Below, one piece after another: positions 1,084 through 43,009 of a DNA stretch of 64,000 nt. The notes below the pieces were generated by a model. The model saw only the letters and a program-made list of their open reading frames with translations, was not told the origin of the DNA and ran no database searches. Made by a program: the position numbers and the translations under genes. Position 1 is the stretch's first letter; each line of letters begins with the position of its first letter. Origin of the DNA: Candidatus Pacearchaeota archaeon. Lineage in GTDB: Archaea; Nanobdellota; Nanobdellia; Pacearchaeales; GW2011-AR1. The DNA is taken from the NCBI GenBank assembly GCA_016866995.1, contig VGKQ01000003.1, positions 118-64,117 on the forward strand, given 5' to 3'.

Positions 1084-1938
1084 ATGAATGGCGAAGGATA
1101 TGATTTAAGCAAGTATGTTGTTCAAAAGGAACCGTTTTATTTAGATATAGCCAGAGAAACGCAACTTTTTAAAGCTGCTTTTCAACAAAAACTTCCTGTT
1201 ATTTTGAAAGGTCCAACAGGATGCGGGAAGAGCAGGTTTATGGAAAGAATGGCTTGGGAAATAAACAGAGAACTTGCTGGACATGATTCTGGATTTCCTC
1301 TAGTGACTGTTCCGTGTCAAGAAGGTTTGACTGCAGACGATTTAATTGGAAGATATCTTATTGACGGAAAATGGATGGATGGTCCGGCGCTTGTTGCTGT
1401 GAGGCACGGAGGACTATTATATTTAGACGAAATTGTTGAAGCTAGAAGCGATACTACTGTTGTTATTCATCCCTTAACAGACCACAGAAGAATACTTCCA
1501 GTAGAGAAGCTCGGCAAAGTTTTTGAGGCTCCTGATAATTTTATGCTTGGGATGTCTTTTAATCCTGGATATCAGAGAAAAATAAAGGATTTAAAAATGA
1601 GCACAAAACAAAGGTTTGTAGCAATCAATTTTGATTATCCTCCTTCTGATACTGAAAGAGAAATTGTTGTGAAAGAGTCTGGCGTTGATGAGAAAACTGC
1701 AGGTGTTTTGGTTGAAATTGGGGGTAATTTTAGAAAAGCAAAAAAACAAGGCAAATTAGAAGAAGGAGCAAGTACAAGACTTTTGGTAAATGCAGCAAAA
1801 CTCATAACTGCGGGCGTAGAACCTTATAGAGCATGTGAAGTTGCTATACTTAATCCAATTACAGACGATGTTGATGTTCAAGAAGCCTTGAGGGGCGGAT
1901 TAGCTGATGTTATTAGAAACTACTTCCCCGGGAGATAA
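1084..1938 (+). CDS. CbbQ/NorQ/NirQ-family (MoxR-like) AAA+ ATPase
   Basis: Walker A LKGPTGCGKSRF and Walker B LLYLDEIVEA. Family-typical strings VTVPCQEGLTADDLIGRY, HPLTDHRRILP, SFNPGYQ and STKQRFVAINFDYP. ATG at 1084 preferred over the TTG at 1072 used by the ORF track. Confidence 0.85.
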   Translation: MNGEGYDLSKYVVQKEPFYLDIARETQLFKAAFQQKLPVILKGPTGCGKSRFMERMAWEINRELAGHDSGFPLVTVPCQEGLTADDLIGRYLIDGKWMDGPALVAVRHGGLLYLDEIVEARSDTTVVIHPLTDHRRILPVEKLGKVFEAPDNFMLGMSFNPGYQRKIKDLKMSTKQRFVAINFDYPPSDTEREIVVKESGVDEKTAGVLVEIGGNFRKAKKQGKLEEGASTRLLVNAAKLITAGVEPYRACEVAILNPITDDVDVQEALRGGLADVIRNYFPGR

Positions 1939-1958
1939 TTAAATTTGTTTTTTGAAGT

Positions 1959-3404
1959 ATGACTAAGTCTTTGGATACTCTTATAACGAGAATAGCTGGT
2001 TTTTACGCGGCTCGTCCAGATTTTACTCCAAAGAGAGCTAAAAGAGGAAGAACTATTGCTCAGAGATTTTCAAGAAGGTTTGCTCGTATCGCTCCTGAAG
2101 ATAGAGAGACTGCAAAAAAAATATTCTTGAGCTATATTTCAAAGGAGAGAGCTGAAAGAAAACCGAGTAAGGGTGTGAGAATAGAAAAACCCGCAAAAAA
2201 ATCTGATGAAAAAGTAAGAAGAGCAAGGACTGAAGAGGAACAATATGCAGAAAGAAGTTTCTATGATTTTTTTAAGAGTTATTTAGGATTTTATATTCAG
2301 GCATCTGAAGACAGGGAAAAATTAGGATTGTTCAATAGAGGTTTGTTGTATATCTTAGATGAAGTTTCAACAGATAGAACTGCAAGCAGTGTTTTGGCTA
2401 GATTTGGCAGTATATTAGAAATTCCTAATGATGCTATTTCTCTTTGGTTGCAGAGTTTGAGTCATCTTTCCAGGAGAGCTAAAGGAGGAGCCAGAACATA
2501 TGATGAAAAAATAGAGAGATACGCAGAAATTTCTACAAGACATCTTGTTGATTTTGAAGATTCTTATAGACACGTGCTTAGAGTTTTAGCTCAAGGTGAA
2601 CCTGTTTTTGGTGCTGAAGACTTTTTATTTAGATTTGCTGGAAATAAGAAGCGAGATGAAGCAGATGTTTTAGGGTGTTATAATACACTTAAAGAAGTTG
2701 ATTCAAGATTAAGGCCAGAAGTAGAGAGAGTCAGGGCGAAAGCTAGCAGAGTAAAAAATAATTCTGCTTTCTTGGCATCTGTTGACGAAAAAACTTACAG
2801 ATTAATCAAAGCAGGAAAAGGCAGAGAGTATCACCAATTAGCTACTTCTTTATTAAACCATCTTGTTGGTATGGCTTTTGGTCATAGAAGATTAGAGAGA
2901 GAACTTTCTTTATTAGAAGGAGTAGTTAATGCAAACCCAGAACTCATTGAAGATGTTTCTAGGAGACTTAAAACATTAGAATTTTCAGATTTGAATGTTC
3001 CTGCTTATCTTAAAGTTGTTACTCACTTGCAGGCGATGCAAGGCTTGACTCCTCAAGACAGAGAAAAATATATGGATATTTCAGTTGAATTATTCCAGGA
3101 TTATAATTATTGGAATAGGCAGTCAAATCCCCAGACAGTTAGAAGAAAGTGTCTTGGGGTGATTGATAAATTAAGTTCTTTGGAAGAAGATAAAAGAAAA
3201 ACTGCTCTTGATCTTGTTTATTCTTTAAAAGATAGAGTTAAAAGACACCCTAGATTAAGCCAACAACCTCCTCTTTATTTAGACAAAGCTATTGAAGTAA
3301 TAACTGAATCTGTTGCTGTTGATTCGTTCAAGGCTGTTGCATTTGTTAATCAAGTAATTAATTATCAGGATTCACCTAGAGGAGAAAAAGATGCAAAAGG
3401 TTAA
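1959..3404 (+). CDS. hypothetical helical protein inside the AAA+/vWA operon
   Basis: 481-aa ORF between the AAA+ and vWA genes. Its 3' end overlaps the next start by 14 nt. No family recognised. Confidence 0.55.
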   Translation: MTKSLDTLITRIAGFYAARPDFTPKRAKRGRTIAQRFSRRFARIAPEDRETAKKIFLSYISKERAERKPSKGVRIEKPAKKSDEKVRRARTEEEQYAERSFYDFFKSYLGFYIQASEDREKLGLFNRGLLYILDEVSTDRTASSVLARFGSILEIPNDAISLWLQSLSHLSRRAKGGARTYDEKIERYAEISTRHLVDFEDSYRHVLRVLAQGEPVFGAEDFLFRFAGNKKRDEADVLGCYNTLKEVDSRLRPEVERVRAKASRVKNNSAFLASVDEKTYRLIKAGKGREYHQLATSLLNHLVGMAFGHRRLERELSLLEGVVNANPELIEDVSRRLKTLEFSDLNVPAYLKVVTHLQAMQGLTPQDREKYMDISVELFQDYNYWNRQSNPQTVRRKCLGVIDKLSSLEEDKRKTALDLVYSLKDRVKRHPRLSQQPPLYLDKAIEVITESVAVDSFKAVAFVNQVINYQDSPRGEKDAKG

Positions 3405-8267: not shown

Positions 8268-8969
8268 ATGAACCCACATGAATTGACAGGAGCAGGACTA
8301 ACTGAAAATGAGAGCAAAGTTTATCTTGCTCTTATTGAGCTTGGCCCAGCTTTAGCTGGAGGAATATCAAGAAAAACAGGAATGCACAGGAGAACAGTTT
8401 ACGATACTTGTGATATGCTGATTAAAAAAGGGCTTATTGGCTATATCCTAAAAAATAATCGCAGATTATTTCAAGCCTCAAATCCATCGAGAATACTTGA
8501 AATAATAAAAGAAAAAGAAAATTTACTTGAACCTCTAATTTCTGAATTAAACTTGAAATATGGAAAGACAAAAGAGAAAGAAGAAACAAATTTTTACAAG
8601 GGAAAAGAGGGATTAAAAACAGTTTTTGAAGAACAACTTCAAGCCAGAGAGATACTAATACTTGGTGCAAGCCCCAGAGCATATGAGATTTTGCAATTTT
8701 ATTTCAAGTGGTATGATAAAACTCGAAAAGAAAAGAGAATAAAAGCGAGAATAATTGCAAGCGATAGGAAAATCAAGAGAATTCCACTTGCAGAAATCAG
8801 ATACCTGCCTGAAAAATATTCCTCGCCTGTTTCTGTTAATATTTATCAGGACAAGGTTGCAATTATTTTATGGGCCTCAAGTCCGTATGCTATTGTAATA
8901 AAAAGTTCAGAAATTAGCAAAGGATACAGAAATTATTTTGAGTTAATGTGGAAGATGGCAAAGAAATAA
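8268..8969 (+). CDS. TrmB-family transcriptional regulator
   Basis: N-terminal wHTH LTENESKVYLALIELGPALAGGISRKTGMHRRTVYDTCDMLIKKGLI, typical of TrmB. Confidence 0.75.
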   Translation: MNPHELTGAGLTENESKVYLALIELGPALAGGISRKTGMHRRTVYDTCDMLIKKGLIGYILKNNRRLFQASNPSRILEIIKEKENLLEPLISELNLKYGKTKEKEETNFYKGKEGLKTVFEEQLQAREILILGASPRAYEILQFYFKWYDKTRKEKRIKARIIASDRKIKRIPLAEIRYLPEKYSSPVSVNIYQDKVAIILWASSPYAIVIKSSEISKGYRNYFELMWKMAKK

Positions 8970-9010
8970 GCTTAAAAATAATCAATTTCATTAATAATCA
9001 GGAGAAAAAC

Positions 9011-10816
9011 ATGACAAAGAAGAAAAAATTTTACATTACAACTGCAATTGATTATGTAAATGCAAGGCCTCATATTGGGCATGCATTTGAAAAAGTTTTA
9101 GCTGATGCTCTGTCCAAATGGCATAGATTAAGAGGAGAAAAAGTTTTCTTTTTGACAGGAGTTGATGAAAATGCCCAGAAAAATGTCGAGGCAGCTGAGA
9201 AAGCAGGAATTCCAATTAAGCAATTTGTTGACAAGAATACAGGATTTTTCATTGAACTTTGCAAAAAATTGAATATTTCTTATGATGATTTTATTAGAAC
9301 TAGTGCAAAAGAGCATGGAATTATTGTGCAGAAAATTGTCAGGAAAATTATTGATAACGGAGATATATACAAAGGAGAGTATAAGGGATTGTATTGCACT
9401 GGATGTGAGACATATTACACTGAAAAAGATTTGAAAGACGGGAAATGTCCGGAGCATAATAAAGAGCCTGAGGAGAGAACAGAAGAAGCTTATTTTTTCA
9501 GGTTATCAAAATATAAAAAACAATTATTAAAATTCATTCCAGAATATGTTGTTCCTGCTTCAAAAGCAAATGAAGTTATTTCGAGAATTAATGAAGAGTT
9601 GAATGATGTTTGTGTGAGCAGGAAGGGAGCTAAATGGGGGATTGATTTTCCTGCTGATAAAAACTACAAAATCTGGGTTTGGATTGATGCTTTGATAAAT
9701 TATGTTTCAGGGGCAGCGGGAAACTGGCCTGCTGATGTTCATGTGATTGGAAAGGGAATTAATTGGTTTCATTCTGTGATTTGGCCTGCAATTTTATTGT
9801 CTGCTGGATATAAACTTCCTAAGAAATTACTTGTGCATGGTTATCTTACACTTAGCGGAGGAAAAATTTCAAAATCACTTGGAAATGTTATTGATCCTCT
9901 TGAGCTTGTGGATAAGTATGGAGCCGAGGCTGTTAGATATTCTTTATTAAGATGTTCTGTATTTGAAGATTCTGACTACAGCGAAGAAATTTTAATTAAA
10001 AGGAATAATTCCGAACTTGCTGATAAATTAGGAAATTTAATTTTGAGAGTTTCAGCTTTGGCTGAGAAATTTGGAATCGAGAAAAATGAGAATAAACTTC
10101 TTGGGAAATTGAAACTTTCTAAGATAGAAAAATTAATTGAAAACTTCGAGCTTGACAAAGCACTCAATTTGATTTTTGAGTTTATTGATGTTTGTAATGA
10201 GTATGTACAGAGCAATAAGATTTGGGAGACTGGAGACAAGAAGAGATTATATGAGCTTTATGATTCAATCAAGGCAATTTCAATTTTACTTTATCCTTTT
10301 ATTCCTTCTAGTTGTGAAAAAATTGCAAAACAATTTAATTTTAAAATTAAATTTGATGAGATAGAAAAGCCATTAAAATTAAAAAAACTGAAAAAATCAG
10401 AAATCTTATTCAAGAAAATAGAAATAAAAGAAGAAAAAGTTAATAAAGCTGAGAATAATATAGAAGGAATAACAACAATGGCAGAAATAATCAAATTTGC
10501 TGAATGGGAAAAACTTGATTTGAGAGTAGCTCAAATCAAAAAAGTTGATGATATAGAGGGGGCTGACAAACTTTACAAGCTTGAGATTGATGTTGGCGAG
10601 TTAGGAAAAAGATTAATCTGTGCTGGTATTAAGAAATATTACAAGAAAGATGAATTGAAGGGAAAGAAAATAATAATTATAGCAAATTTAGAGCCAAGAA
10701 CAATGAAAGGAATTGAATCTTGTGGAATGCTTTTGGCTGCTGGCTCTCAGGAAAAAGATAAATGTGTTTTGCTCACTCCTGATTCTGATATTGAAAATGG
10801 AAGCAAGATAAGCTGA
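9011..10816 (+). CDS. metG: methionyl-tRNA synthetase with C-terminal tRNA-binding (EMAP/Trbp111-like) domain
   Basis: HIGH-type motif PHIGHAFE and KMSKS-type KISKSLGN. C-terminal DLRVAQIKKVDDIEGADKLYKLEIDVGE. ATG at 9011 after GGAG preferred over the track start at 8948. Confidence 0.9.
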   Translation: MTKKKKFYITTAIDYVNARPHIGHAFEKVLADALSKWHRLRGEKVFFLTGVDENAQKNVEAAEKAGIPIKQFVDKNTGFFIELCKKLNISYDDFIRTSAKEHGIIVQKIVRKIIDNGDIYKGEYKGLYCTGCETYYTEKDLKDGKCPEHNKEPEERTEEAYFFRLSKYKKQLLKFIPEYVVPASKANEVISRINEELNDVCVSRKGAKWGIDFPADKNYKIWVWIDALINYVSGAAGNWPADVHVIGKGINWFHSVIWPAILLSAGYKLPKKLLVHGYLTLSGGKISKSLGNVIDPLELVDKYGAEAVRYSLLRCSVFEDSDYSEEILIKRNNSELADKLGNLILRVSALAEKFGIEKNENKLLGKLKLSKIEKLIENFELDKALNLIFEFIDVCNEYVQSNKIWETGDKKRLYELYDSIKAISILLYPFIPSSCEKIAKQFNFKIKFDEIEKPLKLKKLKKSEILFKKIEIKEEKVNKAENNIEGITTMAEIIKFAEWEKLDLRVAQIKKVDDIEGADKLYKLEIDVGELGKRLICAGIKKYYKKDELKGKKIIIIANLEPRTMKGIESCGMLLAAGSQEKDKCVLLTPDSDIENGSKIS

Positions 10817-13320: not shown

Positions 13321-15807
13321 ATGAATTCCCAGACAAGATGCTTGTTCATGGGGGTGATTTTTTTAATTATTATGTTTTATGTTTCATTTGTTTCTGCACT
13401 AAGCATTTCTCCTATTATAAGAAATTTAACTATTTCTCCTATTGTGAAAAATATAACTCATGTTAATTTTTCTCAAGAAGATTTTCTTACAGGAAGTTTT
13501 ATTCCCGGAAATAATGTTAATACTAATGAAACTTTGGCTAGGGAAAATTCAGAATTAAATCTTGTTCATGGTCTTGCTACTGTTGCTTTAAGTTCTGAAG
13601 GGGAAACATGCATCTCTTGGAGCGGAAGTTATTCCTATGCAGAACTCTGCTACTCAGATATATTTTCTTCTGAGCAAGGAAATTATGTTGATTTAAGATG
13701 TGAGGAAGGAGATTTATATATAAATCCAGTACCTGCGTTTAGTGTACCTGGGGCAAGATGCTATGATGAATACGGGCAATTAAGTTTATGTCTTTGCAAC
13801 AATAATGGCTGTTCTGGCACACAGGTTTCTGGAACTTACAGATATTATTTTCCAAGTTCAAAAATTAAAACAATAGCTGCTCTCTGCTATGATAAACATA
13901 ATTTAGGTTATGGATATGATTGGGCTTACAGAGCTAAGGTATATTCAACTGGCTCTAAAATATCATTAGAACCGGATTATTATAATCTTGCCCAATATGA
14001 GCCGGGAGAAGAAGAGCCAAAACAAGTAAATTATAGCCAGGTTTTCCCGCCAAAATTCAATTGTACAATCCAGCTAGGAAATTATAATAATAAATATTTC
14101 TTTTTACAAGACCTGACCAGAAATCTTGGATTAAAATTCAAATTAACTAGATATGGAAGCACTTCTGAAGAAATTTACAGTGAAAATGTTCAATGTGCTG
14201 GGGAGTGTACTGTTTATCTTCCAGATGATGCTGCTGAAAAGATATTACCAAACGATTGGGTTACATGCACAGCAGACTATGCAGAGAATGACAATCTTTG
14301 TGGTTCTGCTGATAGGATAGTGCCTGGTTTCGACATGTTTCTTGCAGATTTTCATATTTTTAATGTAATCCCTTTTGATACTTACACTAATATTGGCATT
14401 GTTCCAACACTTATTCAGGGCAAGCCATTTATTGCAAGAATATTTCCAAGTTTTTCTTCTGATGTTATAAACTATATGGATAAACCCGTGGATATAACTT
14501 TAAAATTGAATAGTGGAGATTTTAAAATTACAAAGCCATATATAATTGGGAATAAGTATAATAATAAAGATTTTTACAGAAACAATTTACTGGCTGAATT
14601 AAACTCTGGAGCTGAGTCCAGCGGTAAAAAAGTAAATGAACTCACTTCTGAACTGAAAAAAATAAAAAAGGGCGGGGAAAGCCTGAACATTTTTTCAAGT
14701 GAAGTTGCTAGGGTGGCTGCCAGTGAGAAGATAGTAGACAGAGAAATTATCATTAATCCTGAAAATAAGATATCTGAAAGCAATAAGGATAATAATAAAG
14801 ATTTTGGGTATGTTCAGACAAATTCTGGGTCAAAAGAACTGTATCTTAGTTATTATGATGTGGTTGTCAAAAATTCCAAAGGAGAGACTCTGCCTTCAGA
14901 TTCCAGCTATAAAGATTCTGATGGAGGGGTTATTTCCATAATAACCAGTTATAAGCTTCTTAAAGGAAATCAAAATTTTGAGTTGGGTGTCGAGTTTTTG
15001 AAAAAGATTTTTCCTCTGCCAAAGGAAATGATTAATTTCAAGGGACCAAATAAAATAGAAAGAGTTTATGAATTTAATAAAACCAAATTAAATCCTCCTG
15101 GTTTTTTGTCTAGTTTAGACCAGCAAACTATTAATAATATGCATCAGGAAGCATATAATGAGATAGAACAGATTAGAAGACAAATTGTAGCAGATTTGGC
15201 TCAGGAGGCAGCACAAGGGGATAGAAATTTCAGGAGATATGTTGTTGTTGGTTTAGTTGATCCTACAATTTTGGGATATTTTAAACCCGGAAGCAGTTCA
15301 TTAAGTTTTGTAGCTGGAATGGCTTTTGTTAATGAAAAGGTTATTTTGATAAGCTACTCAGGTGATCCTTCTGTTCTTGCACATGAATTAGGGCATATAG
15401 AAGGGCTTTATCTTCAAGGAAATGAACTTTACAGAACTTATCCTCCATTTGGAGATATAGCAGATGATGGGTGGTGTCTTGAACAAAATTTAGAAATTGG
15501 AAAGAGTTGCATTTTTGGAGGGCCTAAAATAAATATCTGGACTGATAAAAATTACCAGAATACATACTCTGAAACAAAGGATATTTATGAAGGTTCTTTA
15601 TCTTTAAGCAATATTAATTTTGGGCAGAGATATTTTGATATCATGGGCTCTGCTTCAGCAGGTGAGCAGACTTGGGAGAAGATTCTTGTTAAAAGATTTG
15701 AAAAAGAGTATTCTGACTGGAGACCTGTTGATAAAAGCAATGAATGGATTCAACTTTATCAAACTTATAATAAATTATATGGGGCATACGTTATAACTCA
15801 GACTTGA
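13321..15807 (+). CDS. large secreted protein with HExxH zinc-metalloprotease motif
   Basis: N-terminal hydrophobic signal/anchor, many Cys and N-x-S/T sequons, and LAHELGHIEG near the C-terminus. Confidence 0.6.
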   Translation: MNSQTRCLFMGVIFLIIMFYVSFVSALSISPIIRNLTISPIVKNITHVNFSQEDFLTGSFIPGNNVNTNETLARENSELNLVHGLATVALSSEGETCISWSGSYSYAELCYSDIFSSEQGNYVDLRCEEGDLYINPVPAFSVPGARCYDEYGQLSLCLCNNNGCSGTQVSGTYRYYFPSSKIKTIAALCYDKHNLGYGYDWAYRAKVYSTGSKISLEPDYYNLAQYEPGEEEPKQVNYSQVFPPKFNCTIQLGNYNNKYFFLQDLTRNLGLKFKLTRYGSTSEEIYSENVQCAGECTVYLPDDAAEKILPNDWVTCTADYAENDNLCGSADRIVPGFDMFLADFHIFNVIPFDTYTNIGIVPTLIQGKPFIARIFPSFSSDVINYMDKPVDITLKLNSGDFKITKPYIIGNKYNNKDFYRNNLLAELNSGAESSGKKVNELTSELKKIKKGGESLNIFSSEVARVAASEKIVDREIIINPENKISESNKDNNKDFGYVQTNSGSKELYLSYYDVVVKNSKGETLPSDSSYKDSDGGVISIITSYKLLKGNQNFELGVEFLKKIFPLPKEMINFKGPNKIERVYEFNKTKLNPPGFLSSLDQQTINNMHQEAYNEIEQIRRQIVADLAQEAAQGDRNFRRYVVVGLVDPTILGYFKPGSSSLSFVAGMAFVNEKVILISYSGDPSVLAHELGHIEGLYLQGNELYRTYPPFGDIADDGWCLEQNLEIGKSCIFGGPKINIWTDKNYQNTYSETKDIYEGSLSLSNINFGQRYFDIMGSASAGEQTWEKILVKRFEKEYSDWRPVDKSNEWIQLYQTYNKLYGAYVITQT

Positions 15808-24979: not shown

Positions 24980-27373
24980 ATGGCAGAACAAAAAGAAGAG
25001 AAGAAAGAACAGCAAAATGATGAATATAATTTTCATGAAGCAGAGCCCAGAATTCTCAAATTCTGGGAAAAAGAGAAAATCTATAAGTTTGACAGGGAAA
25101 AAGCCAAGAAAAAGGGAAAGATATATGCAATAGATACTCCTCCACCAACTGTTTCTGGGAAGATGCACATCGGACATGCATGTTCGTATTCTCAGCAGGA
25201 TTTTATTGCCAGATATCATAGGATGAAAGGAAACTCGGTTTTCTATCCATTTGGAACAGATGATAATGGACTGCCGACTGAGAGATTAGTTGAAAAATCT
25301 TACAAGATTAAAGCTAAAGATATGTCACGAGAAGAATTTATTAAATTATGCACTGATTTTTTGAAAAAAGAACTTCCAAAATTTATACAGGACTGGAAAA
25401 ATATAGGAATAAGCTGCGACTATGATATTTATTATTCAACTATTAATGAGCATTCAAGAAAAATTTCGCAGTGGAGTTTTTTAGACTTGTATAAGAAAGG
25501 GAGAGCTGAGAGAAGAGATGCGCCTGCAATGTGGTGTCCTGAATGTCAGACAGGTGTTTCGCAGGTAGAGATTAAGGATAAGGAACTTGAATCTGAATTT
25601 ATTTATCTTAAATTTTTTGTTGATAACAAGGAACTTGAAATTGCAACAACACGCCCGGAATTGCTGCCAGCTTGTGTTGCTGTTTTTTATCATCCTGGTG
25701 ACAAAAGATTTTCTAAATTAAAAAATAAGAAAGCAAAAGTTCCATTGTTTAATTTTTCTGTTCCGATTTTAGAGGATATCAGAGCAGACATGGAAAAAGG
25801 CACTGGCATTGTAATGTGCTGCACTTTTGGAGACCAGGTTGATATGGAGTGGCAGAAAGCTCACAACCTTGAAATTAAAGAGGCAATTTCAAGAGATGGG
25901 AAGATGACTGGCTTGGCTGGAAAGTATGCTGAAATTGGGATTAAAGAAGCGAGAAAAAAAATAATTTGTGATTTGGAAAAAGAAAATTTGATTGTTAAGA
26001 GAGAAAAGATAAAGCATTTTGTTAATGTGCACGAGAGATGCGACACTGAGATTGAATTTGTGAAGAGCAGGCAGTGGTTTATTCGCTATCTTGATTTGAG
26101 AGAGAAAATGCTGGAATGGGGCTCAAGTTTAAATTGGCATCCTTGTCATATGAAGCATAGGTATGGTAATTGGGTTAGGGGATTGCAGTGGGACTGGCTG
26201 ATTTCAAACCAGAGGCATTTTGGTGTTCCATTTCCTGTCTGGTATTGCAAAAAATGTTCTAAACTAATATTGGCAGATGAAAAAGATTTGCCTGTAAATC
26301 CATTGAAAGACAAGCCAAGAAAAAAATGTTCATGCGGTTCTGAAGAATTTATTCCAGAAAAAGATATTCTGAATACATGGTTCACAAGTTCCATGACGCC
26401 GCAGCTTTCAACATGGCTTGTTCCTGAGCTTAAGAATAAGTTATTTCCGATGTCTCTTCGCCCGCAGGCTCATGAGATTATTACATTCTGGCTTTTTAAC
26501 ACTGTTTTCAAGAGCAATATTCATTTTAACAAAAATCCGTGGAAAGATGTTATTATTTCTGGATTTGTGACATTAGAAGGAGAAAAAATGGCAAAATCAA
26601 AGGGAAATGTTATTGAACCACAACCTGTTCTTGAAAAATATGGTGCAGATGCTTTAAGATACTGGGCTTCTTCAAGCAAGCTTGGAGAGGATATGGATTA
26701 TCAGGAGAAAGAGCTTGTTGCAGGAAAAAAGTTTGTTACAAAAATCTGGAATGCTGCAAAATTCATTTCACAAAATCTTGATAACAAGAAACCAAAGAAA
26801 CTTGAAGAGACAGACAGATTATTCCTGGCAAGGTTAAACAAAACAATTGAACAAGCAACAGAAAGTTTTGAAAATTATGAATACTCAAGAGCCAGGCAAG
26901 AAACAATTGATTTTTTCTGGCATGTTTTCTGCGATAATTATCTTGAGATTGTGAAAAATAGAGTTTACCAAGGAACTCGGGAAGAAAAAGAGAGTGCATT
27001 TTTTACACTTTATTATTCTCTTCTTTCTGTATTAAAGATGACGGCTCCTTTTACTCCTTTTATCACAGAGGAAATTTATCAGAAATATTTCAAGAAATAT
27101 GAGAAAGATAAAAGCATACACTTGTCTTCCTGGGCTGAGAAAATGAAGATAAAAGAAAACAAGAATGATTCTGAAATTCTTGAGAATTTAATTTCTGTTC
27201 TTGGAAATGTGAGAATGGCAAAGAGCAGGGCTCAGAAATCAATGAAAGCTGAGATAATTTTAACTCTGGAGAAAGAGAAATTTGACAAATTAAAAAATTT
27301 GCTTTGGGATTTTAAATCTGTAGTTAATGCTCGCGAGATTAAGATTGGAAAATTTGATGTGAAGTTTATCTAA
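24980..27373 (+). CDS. valS: valyl-tRNA synthetase
   Basis: IDTPPPTVSGKMHIGHA (HIGH) and KMAKSKGN (KMSKS). Class Ia editing-type architecture, 797 aa. Confidence 0.85.
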   Translation: MAEQKEEKKEQQNDEYNFHEAEPRILKFWEKEKIYKFDREKAKKKGKIYAIDTPPPTVSGKMHIGHACSYSQQDFIARYHRMKGNSVFYPFGTDDNGLPTERLVEKSYKIKAKDMSREEFIKLCTDFLKKELPKFIQDWKNIGISCDYDIYYSTINEHSRKISQWSFLDLYKKGRAERRDAPAMWCPECQTGVSQVEIKDKELESEFIYLKFFVDNKELEIATTRPELLPACVAVFYHPGDKRFSKLKNKKAKVPLFNFSVPILEDIRADMEKGTGIVMCCTFGDQVDMEWQKAHNLEIKEAISRDGKMTGLAGKYAEIGIKEARKKIICDLEKENLIVKREKIKHFVNVHERCDTEIEFVKSRQWFIRYLDLREKMLEWGSSLNWHPCHMKHRYGNWVRGLQWDWLISNQRHFGVPFPVWYCKKCSKLILADEKDLPVNPLKDKPRKKCSCGSEEFIPEKDILNTWFTSSMTPQLSTWLVPELKNKLFPMSLRPQAHEIITFWLFNTVFKSNIHFNKNPWKDVIISGFVTLEGEKMAKSKGNVIEPQPVLEKYGADALRYWASSSKLGEDMDYQEKELVAGKKFVTKIWNAAKFISQNLDNKKPKKLEETDRLFLARLNKTIEQATESFENYEYSRARQETIDFFWHVFCDNYLEIVKNRVYQGTREEKESAFFTLYYSLLSVLKMTAPFTPFITEEIYQKYFKKYEKDKSIHLSSWAEKMKIKENKNDSEILENLISVLGNVRMAKSRAQKSMKAEIILTLEKEKFDKLKNLLWDFKSVVNAREIKIGKFDVKFI

Positions 27374-27377
27374 ATTC

Positions 27378-27842
27378 TTATAATCTTATTATTGGCTTGT
27401 ATAGAACATCTTCTGCCATTCTTCTTGCTCTTATGCTTATTTTTCCTTTTCCTGAATTTCTTTGCGCATCTGCCTGGTAACACGGCTTTCTTGTGCCATC
27501 ATGTTTTGATTTTATCTTGAAATCAGATATTCTCATTTGTTGATATTTTTCTATTTCTTCTTTCATTCTGTTAAAATACCATAAGCCGCATTCTAAAGTT
27601 AGAGAAGCTGGAATCCCTAAAACTAATCTTCCATATTTTGGGCTTGATTCGTGATGAGGCCAGGGTAATCCAATTAAGTATAATTTTTTCTTTCCATCAT
27701 GTTTTGCAAGATACTCAAGAACTTGCTTATGAGCTCCTGAGAATAATTCTGGCTTAGCTATTTTAAGAAGAAATTCATCCAAGGAAATCATGCATTCAGC
27801 ACAGTCAAGAACATGTTCTCTTGCTGCTTTTATTCTTTCCAA
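27378..27842 (-). CDS. hypothetical protein
   Basis: 154-aa ORF, no family recognised. Confidence 0.45.
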   Translation of the reverse strand: MERIKAAREHVLDCAECMISLDEFLLKIAKPELFSGAHKQVLEYLAKHDGKKKLYLIGLPWPHHESSPKYGRLVLGIPASLTLECGLWYFNRMKEEIEKYQQMRISDFKIKSKHDGTRKPCYQADAQRNSGKGKISIRARRMAEDVLYKPIIRL

Positions 27843-34019: not shown

Positions 34020-35501
34020 ATGATAACAAATGATGAACTTGACGAGCTTCTTGAGAAGCTTGGGAAAATCAGGGGCAGGCATACTGAACTTGTAACTGTG
34101 CTGATTCCAGCTGGAGCTAATATCTACACAATTGCAGACCAGATTGCAGCAGAACAATCAACAGCAGACAATATCAAGTCAAAAACAGTGAGAAAAAACG
34201 TAATGGACGCACTGGAGATGATTTCCCGTGAGTTGAAGAAATACAAAAAAACCCCTGATAATGGCATGGCAATTTTCTGCGGTAATGTTTCTGAAAAAGA
34301 AGGGCAGAATGACATTCAGCTTTGGATTATTGAGCCCCCCCAACCCCTTAAAACAAGATTATACAGATGCGACCAGGTTTTTGTTATTTCTCCATTGCAG
34401 GAAATGAGGGAAGTGCAGGAAGTTTATGGCTTGCTTGTAATGGACAGGAGAGAGGCAACAATTGGATTGCTTGAAGGAAAGAATATTAAAGTTATAAGAA
34501 AAATGTCTTCTGGTGTTCCTGGAAAAATTCGGGCAGGAGGGCAATGTCTATCTCCTGATACTTTAATAGAAACAAAAAATGGAAATATAAAAATAAAAGA
34601 CGTTAAAATAGGCGATGAGATTAAATCCTTAAACATAGAAAACAATAAAATTATATTTTCCAAATGCCTAAATAAATGGACAAAAAATAAAAGCGAATAT
34701 CTTCAAATAATAACTAAAAATAACTCAATTATCTCTTCAGCAGAACATTTATTTTTTTTATGGGATAATAATAGTTTAATTGAAGTTCAAGCTGATTGGA
34801 TTAAGAAGAATGCTATATTGTTAAATAATAATTTAGAAGCTGAAAAAGTAAAAAAGATTATCAACAAGAAGCAGGAAATAGAATTAATAGATATCGAAAC
34901 AGAAGCTGAAAATTTCTTTGCTAATGGAATTCTTGTGCATAATTCATCGCAGAGATTCGAGAGGATTACAGAAGGATTGGCAAAAGAATTTTTTAAACGT
35001 GTGGCAGACAGCATGAAGGAAATTTTTTTTGACATGCCAAAATTAAAAGGAATACTTGTTGGAGGACCCATTCCGACAAAAGAGGAATTTCTGCAGAAAG
35101 GAGAGCTTGTGACAAAACTGAAAGACATGGTTATTGGAATAAAAAATCTTGGAAATACAGACGAGTCTGGACTTGAGGAATTAGTTGAATTAAGCCATGA
35201 TATTCTTTCTCAGCAAGAAATTATCAAGGAGAAAAAAATTCTTGAGAAATTTTTTGAAACATTAGGAAAAAATCCTGACAAGGCAGTTTACAAGATTGAT
35301 GATGTAAAAAAAGCCCTAAAGTATGGGGCTGTTTCTCTCTTGATTTTAAGCAAGAAGCTTGACAAGAAAACCGCAAGAGAACTAAGAAATGAGGCTGAAA
35401 ATATCTCATCTGAGGTTGAAATGATTTCCACAGAGACAGAAGAAGGAGAGCAGTTCTGGAATTTGGGAGGAATTGGAGCTTTGTTGAGGTTTAAAGTTTA
35501 A
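34020..35501 (+). CDS. prf1: peptide chain release factor aRF1, interrupted by a mini-intein
   Basis: NIKS motif (ADNIKSKT). The GGQ motif is followed immediately by the intein. Extein resumes SSQRFERITE. C-terminal domain present. Confidence 0.9.
   Translation: MITNDELDELLEKLGKIRGRHTELVTVLIPAGANIYTIADQIAAEQSTADNIKSKTVRKNVMDALEMISRELKKYKKTPDNGMAIFCGNVSEKEGQNDIQLWIIEPPQPLKTRLYRCDQVFVISPLQEMREVQEVYGLLVMDRREATIGLLEGKNIKVIRKMSSGVPGKIRAGGQCLSPDTLIETKNGNIKIKDVKIGDEIKSLNIENNKIIFSKCLNKWTKNKSEYLQIITKNNSIISSAEHLFFLWDNNSLIEVQADWIKKNAILLNNNLEAEKVKKIINKKQEIELIDIETEAENFFANGILVHNSSQRFERITEGLAKEFFKRVADSMKEIFFDMPKLKGILVGGPIPTKEEFLQKGELVTKLKDMVIGIKNLGNTDESGLEELVELSHDILSQQEIIKEKKILEKFFETLGKNPDKAVYKIDDVKKALKYGAVSLLILSKKLDKKTARELRNEAENISSEVEMISTETEEGEQFWNLGGIGALLRFKV
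34545..34943 (+). mobile_element. 133-aa mini-intein (no homing endonuclease domain) inserted directly after GGQ of aRF1
   Basis: Starts with Cys (CLSPDTLIETKNG, block A). Has an SAEH block-B-like T-x-x-H. Ends with GILVHN followed by the +1 Ser. The in-frame insertion splits RAGGQ|SSQRFERI. Confidence 0.85.
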
Positions 35502-41041: not shown

Positions 41042-41702
41042 TATTTTCCAATTCTTTTCCGTTGAATATTCTATTTCCTATCTTATAAATTCCATAAGTT
41101 ATAAAGAAAGCTGCAAGAACATCAATTGAATAATGCTGGTGAAGCAAGAGGACAGTTATTCCCGTTATTATTGATGCAACAAGAAACAAGAAACTTAAAG
41201 ATTTATTTTCTTTTCTGAATATTAAATAGCCAAGAAAAGGAAGCCCCGTGTGCCCTGAGAAAAACAAGTCATTTTGAAAATAAAAACTTTTTATGAGCCA
41301 TGGAAAATTAATAATTATAGCGTCTGCTGGAGTTTTTAAATGAGTCATAATTATAAAAATTGCCCGTATGAAAACCCATAAACTAATTAATCCAAGAAAA
41401 TAGTGTATTTTTTTAGGATTGAAAATAAATGGATAGACATATAAAAAAGTTGTTATTATTGTAAATACCCAGACATAAATAAATATCAAGACAGAACTGT
41501 CAATAGCAGGAACGTGGCTGAGAATCAAGTCAGGAACTTCTATAACTTCTGCATCTGTTGTTGTATATGAGCCCGCTAAATAATAAATAAAAGAAGTAAT
41601 AACAATAAAAAACAAAGCAAGAAGTATCTTATTTCTATGTTCTATGATTTCATCTTTCCACTCTTTCAATCTTTTTCTAAATTTTGTCATTTTATTATTC
41701 AT
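41031..41702 (-). CDS. PAP2_C / sphingomyelin-synthase-like membrane lipid phosphotransferase
   Basis: Six TM helices with SGHTG and HYSIDV motifs, matching the S-G-H-T and H-Y-x-x-D-V motifs of the SMS/PAP2_C family. Confidence 0.55.
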   Translation of the reverse strand: MNNKMTKFRKRLKEWKDEIIEHRNKILLALFFIVITSFIYYLAGSYTTTDAEVIEVPDLILSHVPAIDSSVLIFIYVWVFTIITTFLYVYPFIFNPKKIHYFLGLISLWVFIRAIFIIMTHLKTPADAIIINFPWLIKSFYFQNDLFFSGHTGLPFLGYLIFRKENKSLSFLFLVASIITGITVLLLHQHYSIDVLAAFFITYGIYKIGNRIFNGKELENTKK

Positions 41703-41871
41703 ATCTTTGCAGGTTTAAAAATGTTCATTTTTGATAATTAATAAATAATCTATATAATTAACCCAATTTTGTAATTTATTATTATTTAATTTTTTGAATA
41801 GTTTTATGATAATGTTTTTAGAAAAGAGACAAAATAGGTAAATATAAAAAAGCAGAAGCTTTTATTGAAAA

Positions 41872-42414
41872 ATGGTTGGAGAATACTCGCAGGAAGAGGG
41901 AGCAAGATTGTTAAAATTAGCGAGAGACAGCATAAATGAGGAATTTTCTGGAGAAAAAGTTAAATTTCCAGAAGGAAAGAAATTTATGCAGGCGAGAGGG
42001 GTTTTTGTTACTTTAACTAAAAATAGTGAATTAAGAGGATGTGTTGGGTTTCCGTATCCAATTAAGTCTGTTTCAGAGGCTGCTTATGAAGCTGCCAAAT
42101 CATCTGCTTTTTCTGATTTCAGATTTTTAAAACTTGATAAATCTGAATTAGAGAAGATAAAAATTGAGATTTCTATACTTTCTATGCCTCAGGAGACAAA
42201 ACCAGAAGATATCAAGATTGGAAGAGATGGATTGATGTGCAGTTATGTTGGGTATTCTGGCTTGCTTCTTCCGCAGGTTGCTGTTGAGTGGAAAATGTCA
42301 AGACTTGAATTTTTAGAGGCAGTGTGCCAGAAAGCAGGATTGCCTAAAGACAGCTGGCAGAAAAAGGGGTTTTCCCTGAAAAGATTTTCTTGCCAGATAT
42401 TTAAGGAGCAGTAA
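41872..42414 (+). CDS. AMMECR1 domain protein
   Basis: RGVFVTL ... LRGCVGF signature. Confidence 0.8.
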   Translation: MVGEYSQEEGARLLKLARDSINEEFSGEKVKFPEGKKFMQARGVFVTLTKNSELRGCVGFPYPIKSVSEAAYEAAKSSAFSDFRFLKLDKSELEKIKIEISILSMPQETKPEDIKIGRDGLMCSYVGYSGLLLPQVAVEWKMSRLEFLEAVCQKAGLPKDSWQKKGFSLKRFSCQIFKEQ

Positions 42415-43009
42415 AATTATTTCTTTAATCTAAATTAGCCGAGCATAACCTTAAATTAGTTAATTAAAATTTTGTGGGTTTTTATTCAATATTTTATGTT
42501 TTTGGCTTTTTGAAAAGATTTAAAAATGCTGAATTTGTATATTTTTTTATGAGTGGAAATCCAGCCACAAGACAAGCAGATGTTGCTTTTAGGGAACAAG
42601 TAATAAAATATACTCTTGGAGATACAGCAAGCATATGTCCTATTTATCTTTCTTTTGAAGCAGGCAGAAAAGTTCCAAATCAATGCAGAAGTTGTAATGG
42701 GACAAGAGAAACCTGCCAAACTTTTCAGTTATACTTGGATGTGAGAAGAACTGTTCAATAAATTAACTTAATTTTTATCAAATATTTTTTAATTTAATTC
42801 TCTAATTGTTATTAATCATTATTCTACAGCTTGATGCAGAAAAAGCCAAGGAAAAATCCACTATTATCACAAGAATTATATAAATTAAAGCTTGTTGTGT
42901 GGAGACATACTTATTTGTTATTTATTTAATTCTGGAAAATTATCACAATAATCCTTATTAATCTCTTTCTCTTTAAAAGAGAAACAAAATAGGTTTATAT
43001 AAATATAAA

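What the first reader, a model, noticed from the sequence alone, without database searches (positions are those of the whole stretch)
34545..34943. Mini-intein inserted immediately after the catalytic GGQ of release factor aRF1
Seen directly:
- aRF1 reads ...GKIRAGGQ | CLSPDTLIETKNG ... ANGILVHN | SSQRFERITE...
- The 133-aa insert begins with Cys, ends with His-Asn, and is followed by Ser. These are the canonical splice-junction residues.
- It is too short for a homing endonuclease domain.
- It is more AT/Asn/Lys/Ile-rich than the exteins.

Established knowledge: inteins target the most conserved catalytic sites of essential proteins, and GGQ is the peptidyl-tRNA hydrolysis motif.

Inference:
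- Translation termination in this organism depends on protein splicing of its only visible class I release factor.
- aRF1 is not among the common intein hosts that I can recall, so the insertion point may be a new or rare intein allele.
Basis: partly seen in the sequence, partly recalled or inferred. Interest (0 to 1): 0.6.

Follow-up and report, generated by a model that had tools for sequence, protein, structure and literature searches.

The report
Mini-intein splitting archaeal release factor aRF1
The only release-factor gene (aRF1) found in this small DPANN archaeon is interrupted right after its catalytic GGQ motif by a genuine 133-residue self-splicing mini-intein, a type common in related metagenome genomes but described in no paper I could find.

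Summary
ORF 34020-35501 (+) encodes a 493-aa aRF1 precursor. Residues 176-308 (34545-34943) are a clean in-frame insert between Q and S of the GGQS loop.

The insert is a canonical class-1 mini-intein:
- It has Cys1, block B S65-x-x-H68, block F Asp116, terminal His132-Asn133 and Ser+1.
- It passes the curated cut-offs of Pfam Intein_splicing, TIGR01445 and TIGR01443.
- Its AlphaFold model (pLDDT 97) has a HINT fold. The closest solved structure is the gp41-1 intein (TM 0.83-0.86).

Removing it in silico gives a colinear aRF1 (399 bits, one stretch). The assembly (85.6% complete) holds no second aRF1.

The same site carries three states in relatives:
- mini-inteins of 129-149 aa;
- LAGLIDADG-bearing inteins of 430-502 aa;
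- empty alleles, with exteins up to 89% identical to this one.

In the organism's family, 16 of 81 genus representatives carry an intein at this site. Mini and large inteins form two separate lineages, and presence or absence changes at least 9 times on the extein tree.

This is a new member of a known kind. It is frequent in public data and in this scan, and I found no paper on it. Splicing activity itself is inferred, not shown. Interest is modest.

The parts
34020..35501 (+). aRF1 precursor ORF (493 aa plus stop), the only aRF1 locus in the assembly
   Evidence: ORF. TIGR03676 at 372.7 bits against a cut-off of 234.7, split at profile position 174; single locus in G000.
34020..34544 (+). 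N-extein (175 aa): aRF1 N domain with NIKS (res 51-54) and YxCxxxF (YRCDQVF), plus the start of the M domain, ending in GGQ (34536-34544)
   Evidence: N51, I52, K53, S54, Y115, C117, F121, G173, G174 and Q175 are invariant in 16 sequences; residues 6-176 match profile positions 4-174.
34545..34943 (+). 133-aa class-1 mini-intein (HINT domain, no endonuclease)
   Evidence: PF14890 at 44.0 bits against 35.8. TIGR01445 at 30.9 against 24.5, and TIGR01443 at 20.9 against 15.6; gp41-1 intein, E=2.3e-16; pLDDT 97.2. Foldseek probability 1.00 to inteins.
34545..34562 (+). Block A (CLSPDT) with the Cys1 nucleophile (34545-34547)
   Evidence: Cys1 is invariant in alignment A2 and starts every insert that matched a pattern requiring Cys: 102 of 102 and 15 of 15. 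No interrupted protein failed the pattern.
34737..34748 (+). Block B S65-A-E-H68 (Ser variant of the TxxH motif)
   Evidence: S65 and H68 are invariant in A2. They align with SEEH of gp41-1.
34881..34922 (+). Block F (ELIDIETEAENFFA) with Asp116 (34890-34892)
   Evidence: D116 and F124 are invariant. D116 aligns with the block-F Asp of gp41-1 in 'ELIDIEV'.
34923..34943 (+). Block G (NGILVHN) with penultimate His132 and terminal Asn133
   Evidence: All 102 inserts found end in His-Asn (Asn was set by the search pattern, His was not). All 15 end in HN, where the pattern set neither residue. H132 and N133 are invariant in A2.
34944..35498 (+). C-extein (185 aa): starts with Ser+1 (34944-34946) of the GGQS loop, then the rest of the M domain and the C domain
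   Evidence: S309 is invariant; the +1 residue is Ser in 102/102, where the pattern allowed Ser, Cys or Thr; the spliced product is colinear with TIGR03676 and with PDB 4af1 across the junction.

Best explanation
The segment 34545-34943 is a genuine, probably splicing-competent class-1 mini-intein. It sits between Gln175 and Ser of the GGQS peptidyl-tRNA-hydrolysis loop of aRF1.

Proposed mechanism (standard class-1 chemistry, inferred here):
1. The gene is transcribed and translated as one 493-aa precursor.
2. The HINT domain folds.
3. Cys1 makes an N-S acyl shift at the Gln175-Cys1 bond, helped by block-B His68.
4. The hydroxyl of Ser+1 attacks the thioester, forming a branched intermediate.
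5. Asn133 cyclises, helped by His132 and Asp116, and releases the intein.
6. An O-N shift restores a normal peptide bond.
The product is a 360-aa aRF1 with an intact ...RAGGQSSQRF... loop.

The GGQ loop must reach the peptidyl-transferase centre, so the precursor with a 15-kDa domain in that loop is expected to be inactive. No second aRF1 is seen, so termination in this organism should depend on efficient splicing.

Evolutionary picture:
- This is one member of an endonuclease-less mini-intein lineage.
- That lineage shares the GGQ|S site in DPANN (Nanoarchaeota/Pacearchaeota-type) archaea with a separate LAGLIDADG-bearing lineage and with empty alleles.
- This is the pattern expected of a selfish element in a homing cycle, kept in place because only exact removal is tolerated at a catalytic site.
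For: Shown by tools:
- Exact junctions and open frame.
- Intein family models above curated cut-offs.
- C1, S65, H68, D116, F124, H132 and N133 are invariant in 37 homologues that are 37-75% identical.
- 102/102 and 15/15 intein-bearing homologues read GGQ|C...HN|S.
- A profile of the intein hits only inteins or HINT domains in the PDB. The best is gp41-1 at E=2.3e-16, end to end.
- AF2 model with pLDDT 97.2 and pTM 0.89, all-beta. Foldseek gives gp41-1 TM 0.83/0.86 at rmsd 2.1 A, followed by dozens of inteins.
- The in-silico spliced product scores 399 bits to TIGR03676 in one stretch. It aligns across the junction with Halobacterium aRF1 4af1 (GGQSAQRF).
- Empty alleles have exteins 76-89% identical to this one.
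- One aRF1 locus in the assembly.
- 16 of 81 genus representatives of the family are interrupted at profile position 174: 6 mini and 10 large.
- At least 9 presence/absence changes on the extein tree, 5 of them forced by well-supported branches. One mini/empty pair has 98% identical exteins.
- Mini and large inteins are separated by a single branch with SH-aLRT 100.

Inferred: the splicing chemistry, the inactivity of the precursor, and the selfish-element dynamics.
Against: - No experimental or proteomic evidence of splicing for this or any aRF1 intein.
- Block B carries Ser instead of the commoner Thr. The efficient gp41-1 intein has the same Ser.
- The assembly is 85.6% complete, so a second, uninterrupted aRF1 on an unassembled contig cannot be ruled out.
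- The homologue sample for the extein tree (best 120 hits) is biased towards intein-bearing proteins, because the query contained the intein.
- The intein tree rests on only 137 columns.
Confidence: 0.92

Rival explanations
1. The mini-intein is more than a selfish passenger. It acts as a conditional switch (redox-, temperature- or substrate-sensitive splicing) that gates the supply of active aRF1, and so translation termination, after translation. This would explain why a lineage without an endonuclease persists.
For: - The endonuclease-less lineage is broad. It makes up 98 of the 102 intein-bearing clusters among the best 120 hits. The phylum sample gave about 20 end-to-end matches in open frames of about 500 aa, from several families of the class.
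- It is distinct from the endonuclease-bearing lineage.
- A second Cys (C41) is the majority residue in the homologues, which could allow a disulfide with Cys1.
- Conditional splicing of archaeal inteins, such as RadA, is documented in the literature (PMC5238726 and PMC11409957, listed).
Against: - C41 is not invariant; several homologues have Val.
- Close relatives do well with empty alleles: 65 of 81 genera, and a 98%-identical extein pair with and without the intein. The intein is therefore dispensable.
- Persistence is equally explained by the difficulty of removing it exactly from a catalytic loop.
- There are no data on splicing kinetics.
Confidence: 0.06
2. The insert is a degenerate, non-splicing HINT or BIL-like domain that stays in the protein. 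The gene would then be a pseudogene or a neofunctionalised aRF1 paralogue.
For: Foldseek also returns bacterial intein-like and Hedgehog HINT domains with similar scores (ranks 2, 4 and 8). Splicing has not been shown.
Against: - All catalytic positions needed for complete splicing (C1, H68, D116, H132, N133, S+1) are invariant in homologues whose other intein positions are only about 47% identical.
- The exteins keep every aRF1 motif (NIKS, YxCxxxF, GGQ).
- It is the only aRF1 locus.
- A 15-kDa domain in the GGQ loop is sterically incompatible with entry into the peptidyl-transferase centre (established from eRF1-ribosome structures; inference here).
Confidence: 0.015
3. The insert is removed at the RNA level (an archaeal bulge-helix-bulge intron or a group I/II intron), or it is an assembly artefact, and is not a protein-level element.
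For: Its GC content is much lower than that of the flanks, as for many inserted elements.
Against: - The 133 codons are kept open against P about 7e-7.
- The translation is a high-confidence HINT fold with intein motifs.
- The same architecture occurs in over a hundred independent assemblies from NCBI, JGI, ENA and Logan and in 15 other genomes of the family.
Confidence: 0.005

Closest known systems
gp41-1 intein (metagenomic, cyanophage-like gp41 helicase; PDB 6qaz, 6riz)
   Same: - Closest solved relative by sequence profile (E=2.3e-16, end to end).
- Closest by fold (TM 0.83/0.86, rmsd 2.1 A, 29% identity).
- Similar minimal size (about 125-133 aa).
- Cys1, the Ser-x-x-His form of block B, and the 'ELIDIE' block F seen in the alignment.
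- Ser+1 is also shared, but for gp41-1 this is recalled, not tested here.
   Different: As I recall, gp41-1 is a naturally split, trans-splicing intein in a phage-type helicase. This one is contiguous (cis-splicing) and sits in an archaeal translation termination factor. At 29% identity it is not the same allele or family in the narrow sense.
Archaeal mini-inteins and endonuclease-associated inteins with solved structures (Pho/Pab CDC21-1, 6rpq/6rpp; Mja/Mvu TFIIB, 5o9j/5o9i; Tvo VMA, 4o1s; Pho RadA, 4e2u)
   Same: Class-1 HINT splicing domains inserted at conserved functional sites of essential archaeal information-processing proteins. All were matched by profile and by fold.
   Different: The host proteins and insertion sites differ. 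None is in a release factor. Sequence similarity is weaker (E 1e-10 to 1e-3).
LAGLIDADG-bearing aRF1 inteins at the same GGQ|S site in related DPANN genomes (e.g. P0008, P0028, P0056, P0114; G018, G056 and others)
   Same: - Identical insertion point and junction residues (GGQ|C...HN|S).
- Homologous splicing domain, about 40% identical.
- Same host clade.
   Different: They are 430-502 aa and carry a two-motif LAGLIDADG endonuclease (LGYYLGDG and GFFDAEGY; PF14528). In the splicing-domain tree they form a separate lineage from all mini-inteins (SH-aLRT 100). The window's intein is therefore not a recent deletion derivative of one of them.
Inteins in other translation and targeting factors (archaeal IF-2/aIF5B intein; SRP54 intein in this same genome)
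   Same: Inteins at nucleotide-binding or catalytic loops of translation-related proteins. There is a weak match to the intein part of the IF-2 model NF011418 (E=8e-4). The SRP54 of this genome is split in its P-loop.
   Different: These are different alleles and they carry endonuclease domains. The aRF1 site is the peptidyl-tRNA hydrolysis loop, not an NTP-binding loop.

Membership tests
Intein (class 1, HINT superfamily) | In-frame insertion in a conserved host protein, with exteins colinear with uninterrupted orthologues | tested here: met
   Alignment A1 with four empty alleles shows a gap exactly between GGQ and S. The spliced product matches TIGR03676 positions 4-317 in one stretch at 399 bits. 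It aligns with PDB 4af1 across the junction.
Intein (class 1, HINT superfamily) | N-terminal nucleophile (Cys/Ser) at position 1 (block A) | tested here: met
   Cys1 at 34545-34547. It is invariant in alignment A2. Every interrupted homologue matched a pattern requiring Cys at position 1: 102/102 and 15/15.
Intein (class 1, HINT superfamily) | Block B T-x-x-H motif | tested here: met
   The motif is present as S65-A-E-H68. Both S65 and H68 are invariant in 37 sequences. gp41-1 has the same Ser variant.
Intein (class 1, HINT superfamily) | Blocks F and G: conserved Asp, penultimate His, terminal Asn, and a Ser/Thr/Cys nucleophile at +1 | tested here: met
   D116, H132 and N133 are invariant. 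HN|S holds in all 117 intein-bearing sequences examined.
Intein (class 1, HINT superfamily) | Score above curated thresholds of intein family models | tested here: met
   PF14890 at 44.0 against 35.8. TIGR01445 at 30.9 against 24.5, and TIGR01443 at 20.9 against 15.6.
Intein (class 1, HINT superfamily) | HINT (horseshoe, all-beta) fold | tested here: met
   This is a prediction, not a solved structure: AF2 pLDDT 97.2 with 13 strands. The top 50 Foldseek hits are all inteins or HINT domains at probability 1.00.
Intein (class 1, HINT superfamily) | Autocatalytic protein splicing (excision plus extein ligation) | not testable with these tools
   Needs expression and mass spectrometry, or a metaproteomic search for the ligated peptide AGGQSSQR.
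Mini-intein (no homing endonuclease) | No endonuclease domain between blocks B and F; about 130-200 aa | tested here: met
   The intein is 133 aa. No LAGLIDADG/HNH family matched. The large alleles at the same site carry about 300 extra residues at this position.
aRF1/eRF1 class-I release factor (TIGR03676) | Three eRF1 domains with NIKS, YxCxxxF and GGQ motifs; score above the equivalog cut-off | tested here: met
   PF03463, PF03464 and PF03465 all match. TIGR03676 scores 372.7 (precursor) and 399 (spliced) against a cut-off of 234.7. The motifs are invariant in A1.
Bacterial intein-like (BIL) / Hedgehog-type HINT domains | HINT domain that only cleaves or transfers, usually without the full HN plus +1-nucleophile set, and not inserted in a conserved site of an essential protein | tested here: not met
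   The fold is similar (ranks 2, 4 and 8). But the full splicing residue set is present and conserved, and the flanks are colinear exteins of an essential protein. I therefore file it as an intein, not a BIL.

The most novel reading that the evidence does not exclude
The GGQ|S site of DPANN aRF1 hosts two co-circulating intein lineages. The endonuclease-less mini lineage, to which this window belongs, may persist and spread for either of two reasons. It may be mobilised in trans by the LAGLIDADG enzyme of the large lineage, which cuts empty alleles that are then repaired from mini-intein-bearing DNA. Or its splicing may be conditional and gate translation termination in these reduced-genome symbionts. 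Either reading would make it more than a decaying selfish element.
Probability: 0.1. Interest if true: 0.7.

Novelty: new member of a known kind. Interest (0 to 1): 0.35.

Why it matters
- It adds a class-I release factor, split exactly at the peptidyl-tRNA hydrolysis loop, to the list of intein hosts. It also shows that the production of active aRF1 in many DPANN archaea probably needs protein splicing.
- It has a practical consequence for annotation. NCBI records name the intein-bearing homologues 'hypothetical protein' but name the empty allele 'peptide chain release factor aRF-1'. Gene inventories of these genomes can therefore wrongly appear to lack a release factor.
- The site offers a compact natural system for studying intein population dynamics: empty, mini and endonuclease-bearing alleles occur among close relatives.
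- The 133-aa intein is a small cis-splicing relative of gp41-1 with a natural Gln(-1)/Ser(+1) context, which may interest protein engineers.
- It does not challenge any current concept.

Tried and rejected
- Single-sequence AlphaFold run of the intein gave pLDDT 37 and was useless. I replaced it with a run on a 37-sequence alignment.
The terms covered intein with aRF1, eRF1, peptide chain release factor, DPANN, Pacearchaeota, Woesearchaeota and Nanoarchaeota.
- The main text of the 2016 intein survey (PMC4760082) and of the Anaeramoeba intein paper (PMC10710043) does not mention release factors.
- The supplement of PMC4760082 is not held, so the absence is not proven.
- The Bodo saltans virus paper mentions eRF1 and inteins separately, not together.
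- A first regular expression cut the large inteins short at internal S..RF strings. I corrected this.
- I considered and rejected an RNA intron or an assembly artefact, a retained non-splicing HINT/BIL domain, and a second aRF1 copy.
- I did not attempt dN/dS. At 75% or lower amino-acid identity in an AT-rich gene, synonymous sites would be saturated.

Full report
**Observation**

The window holds one ORF at 34020..35501 (+) of 493 aa. Read directly, it runs ...GKIRAGGQ, then TGT (Cys) at 34545-34547. There follow 133 codons ending CAT AAT (His-Asn) at 34938-34943, then TCA (Ser) at 34944-34946 and ...SQRFERITE.

The composition claim also holds:
- The insert has 24.1% GC, against 41.0% and 36.2% in the two exteins and 33.1% in the window. 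It lies in the lowest 1.4% of 399-nt windows.
- Asn is 14.3% against 3.9%, Ile 15.8% against 8.9%, and there is no Arg.

At that base composition a 133-codon frame would stay open by chance with P about 7e-7. It did so in 0 of 20,000 shuffles, and the other five frames carry 2-21 stops. The frame is therefore maintained by selection.

**What it is**

The flanks are aRF1:
- Pfam eRF1_1, eRF1_2 and eRF1_3 all match.
- The NCBIfam equivalog TIGR03676 scores 372.7 bits against a cut-off of 234.7. The match breaks at profile position 174 and resumes at 174 after the insert.

The insert alone passes curated cut-offs for three intein models:
- Pfam Intein_splicing: 44.0 against 35.8.
- TIGR01445, intein N-terminal region: 30.9 against 24.5.
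- TIGR01443, intein C-terminal region: 20.9 against 15.6.

A 37-sequence alignment of homologous inserts (A2, 37-75% identical to this one) has C1, W45, S65, H68, D116, F124, H132 and N133 invariant. These include the block A nucleophile, block B (S-x-x-H, the Ser variant of TxxH), the block F Asp and the block G His-Asn.

A profile of A2 searched against all PDB sequences returns only inteins and HINT domains. The best is the gp41-1 intein (6qaz), at E=2.3e-16 and aligned end to end, including SEEH and ELIDIE.

AlphaFold2 on A2 gives pLDDT 97.2, pTM 0.89 and 13 beta strands. A single-sequence run had failed. Foldseek against the PDB puts gp41-1 first (TM 0.83/0.86, rmsd 2.1 A, 29% identity), followed by some fifty intein or HINT chains at probability 1.00.

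Removing the 133 residues in silico gives a 360-aa protein. It matches TIGR03676 positions 4-317 in one stretch at 399 bits. It aligns with Halobacterium aRF1 (4af1) straight through the junction, GGQSSQRF against GGQSAQRF.

The exteins keep NIKS, YxCxxxF and GGQ.

**Context in the genome**

- The window is contig C3 of a 1.06-Mb, 70-contig assembly that is 85.6% complete. This is its only aRF1 locus.
- A candidate archaeal HemK-related methyltransferase (hemK_rel_arch, TIGR00537) is present at C14:21244-21732, just above the cut-off (88.5 against 87). From recollection, this is the family of the Mtq2 enzyme that methylates the GGQ glutamine. That role would fit a canonical GGQ that is completed after splicing, which is an inference.
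- The genome has five other intein-bearing ORFs, all large: NrdD, SRP54 (split in its P-loop), RadA, a T2SSE/FlaI-type ATPase and acetyl-CoA synthetase. The aRF1 intein is the only mini-intein.

**Relatives**

The search against 5.8 billion proteins returned 4,829 hits. Among the best 120 clusters:
- 98 carry a mini-intein of 129-149 aa.
- 4 carry an intein of 430-431 aa with a LAGLIDADG domain (PF14528; motifs LGYYLGDG and GFFDAEGY).
- 18 are empty.
- All 102 occupied alleles read GGQ|C...HN|S.

NCBI names for these hits are Nanoarchaeota, Pacearchaeota or Woesearchaeota MAGs. The intein-bearing ones are called 'hypothetical protein' and an empty one is called 'peptide chain release factor aRF-1'.

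The closest exteins to the window's (89%, 88% and 86% identity) are empty alleles. The closest mini-intein-bearing ones are 80% identical.

I also looked at a less biased sample, one genome for each of 81 genera of the organism's family. In it, 16 are interrupted at profile position 174 and 65 are not. I fetched the 15 others. Five have minis of 135-139 aa, eight have 430-431 aa inteins and two have 502 aa inteins, all reading GGQ|C...HN|S.

Across 401 genomes of the phylum, the mini-intein gives about 20 end-to-end matches. These lie in open frames of about 495-532 aa, spread over several families of the same class. I did not confirm the host protein of those matches.

**Dynamics**

On an extein-only tree, presence or absence needs at least 9 changes, of which 5 are forced by branches with SH-aLRT of 95 or more. 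The well-supported 28-member clade around the window mixes 18 empty, 7 mini and 3 large alleles. One mini/empty pair (P0003/P0085) has 98% identical exteins.

Intein and extein divergence are decoupled:

| Pair | Extein identity | Intein identity |
|---|---|---|
| P0003/P0006 | 91% | 57% |
| P0001/P0007 | 72% | 63% |

On a tree of splicing domains (137 columns), the 103 minis and 14 large inteins are separated by a single branch with SH-aLRT 100. The mini-inteins are therefore one lineage. They are not repeated recent deletion products of the large ones, to which they are about 40% identical.

Caveats: the 120-protein sample is biased towards intein carriers, and the intein tree has few columns.

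**How it most likely works**

The anatomy is shown; the chemistry is inferred from the established class-1 mechanism. That mechanism runs as follows:
1. An N-S acyl shift at Cys1.
2. Trans-esterification to Ser+1.
3. Asn133 cyclisation, assisted by His132 and Asp116.
4. An O-N shift that restores the GGQ-S peptide bond.

The GGQ loop must enter the peptidyl-transferase centre, which is established from eRF1-ribosome structures. A precursor with a 15-kDa domain in that loop should therefore be inactive. With one aRF1 gene, termination should depend on splicing.

The distribution of empty, mini and endonuclease-bearing alleles among close relatives is what the homing-cycle model of selfish inteins predicts. 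An insertion in a catalytic loop can only be lost by exact deletion, which favours long persistence.

**Rivals**

- A regulatory, conditional intein is not excluded. It is not supported either: 65 of 81 genera do without the intein, and the second Cys (C41) is not invariant.
- A retained, non-splicing HINT domain is contradicted by the invariant catalytic set and the intact aRF1 motifs.
- An RNA intron or an assembly artefact is contradicted by the maintained frame, the fold, and recurrence in over a hundred independent assemblies.

**Comparison with the known, and novelty**

It meets every sequence and structure criterion of a class-1 mini-intein. Only splicing activity could not be tested. 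The closest characterised relative is gp41-1, which differs in being, as I recall, split and phage-borne, and in its host protein.

Seven full-text searches and two targeted paper checks found no description of an intein in aRF1 or eRF1. The supplement of the main intein survey is not held.

Earlier notes of this scan report the same allele in dozens of DPANN genomes, also without finding a paper. Some lineages there have GGW, GGM or GGS instead of GGQ. This window has the canonical GGQ.

**Verdict**

This is a real feature and an ordinary mechanism. It is a new member of a known kind: common in public sequence data, probably undescribed in the literature, and of modest interest.

Noticed in passing
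G000 contigs outside the window: C13:~14120-15118(-), C4:~41213-42820(-), C4:~1734-3179(+), C9:~26009-27565(+), C16:~8817-9881(+): There are five further intein-bearing ORFs in the same genome, all large with LAGLIDADG-like motifs. After in-silico splicing the hosts are NrdD, SRP54 (split inside the P-loop, GAGK|C...HN|TT), RadA, a T2SSE/FlaI-type ATPase and acetyl-CoA synthetase. That makes six inteins in a 1.06-Mb genome.
   Followed up: partly
G000:C9:~26009-27565(+): The intein in the T2SSE/FlaI-like ATPase starts with a normal CFKNGY... sequence. Its C-terminal junction is not canonical: it reads ...FFIAGNKPMNIFD|TIRKF, with no His-Asn. It may use a different terminal residue or may be degenerate.
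   Followed up: no
homologues of window 34020-35501: NCBI records name intein-bearing aRF1 homologues 'hypothetical protein' (e.g. P0006, P0019, P0028, P0033, P0040, P0054, P0101, P0108, P0120). The empty allele P0059 is named 'peptide chain release factor aRF-1'. Annotation-based inventories can therefore miss the release factor in these genomes.
   Followed up: partly
L014 (G030:C20:5000-7800) and L025 (G064:C81:180-2920): Two family members carry a 502-aa aRF1 intein, about 70 residues longer than the usual 430-431-aa LAGLIDADG form at the same site. I did not examine the extra segment.
   Followed up: no
G000:C14:21244-21732(-): A candidate archaeal HemK-related methyltransferase (TIGR00537, 88.5 bits against a cut-off of 87) is present. 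From recollection, this is the family of the Mtq2 enzyme that methylates the GGQ glutamine. Earlier notes say that lineages with GGW/GGM aRF1 have lost it.
   Followed up: partly
window 34545-34943, residue W45 of the intein (34677-34679): A Trp (in the motif NKW) is invariant in the 37 aligned mini-inteins, and the four large aRF1 inteins in alignment A1 also carry Trp at the aligned position. It is not one of the classical catalytic block residues, and its role is unknown.
   Followed up: no
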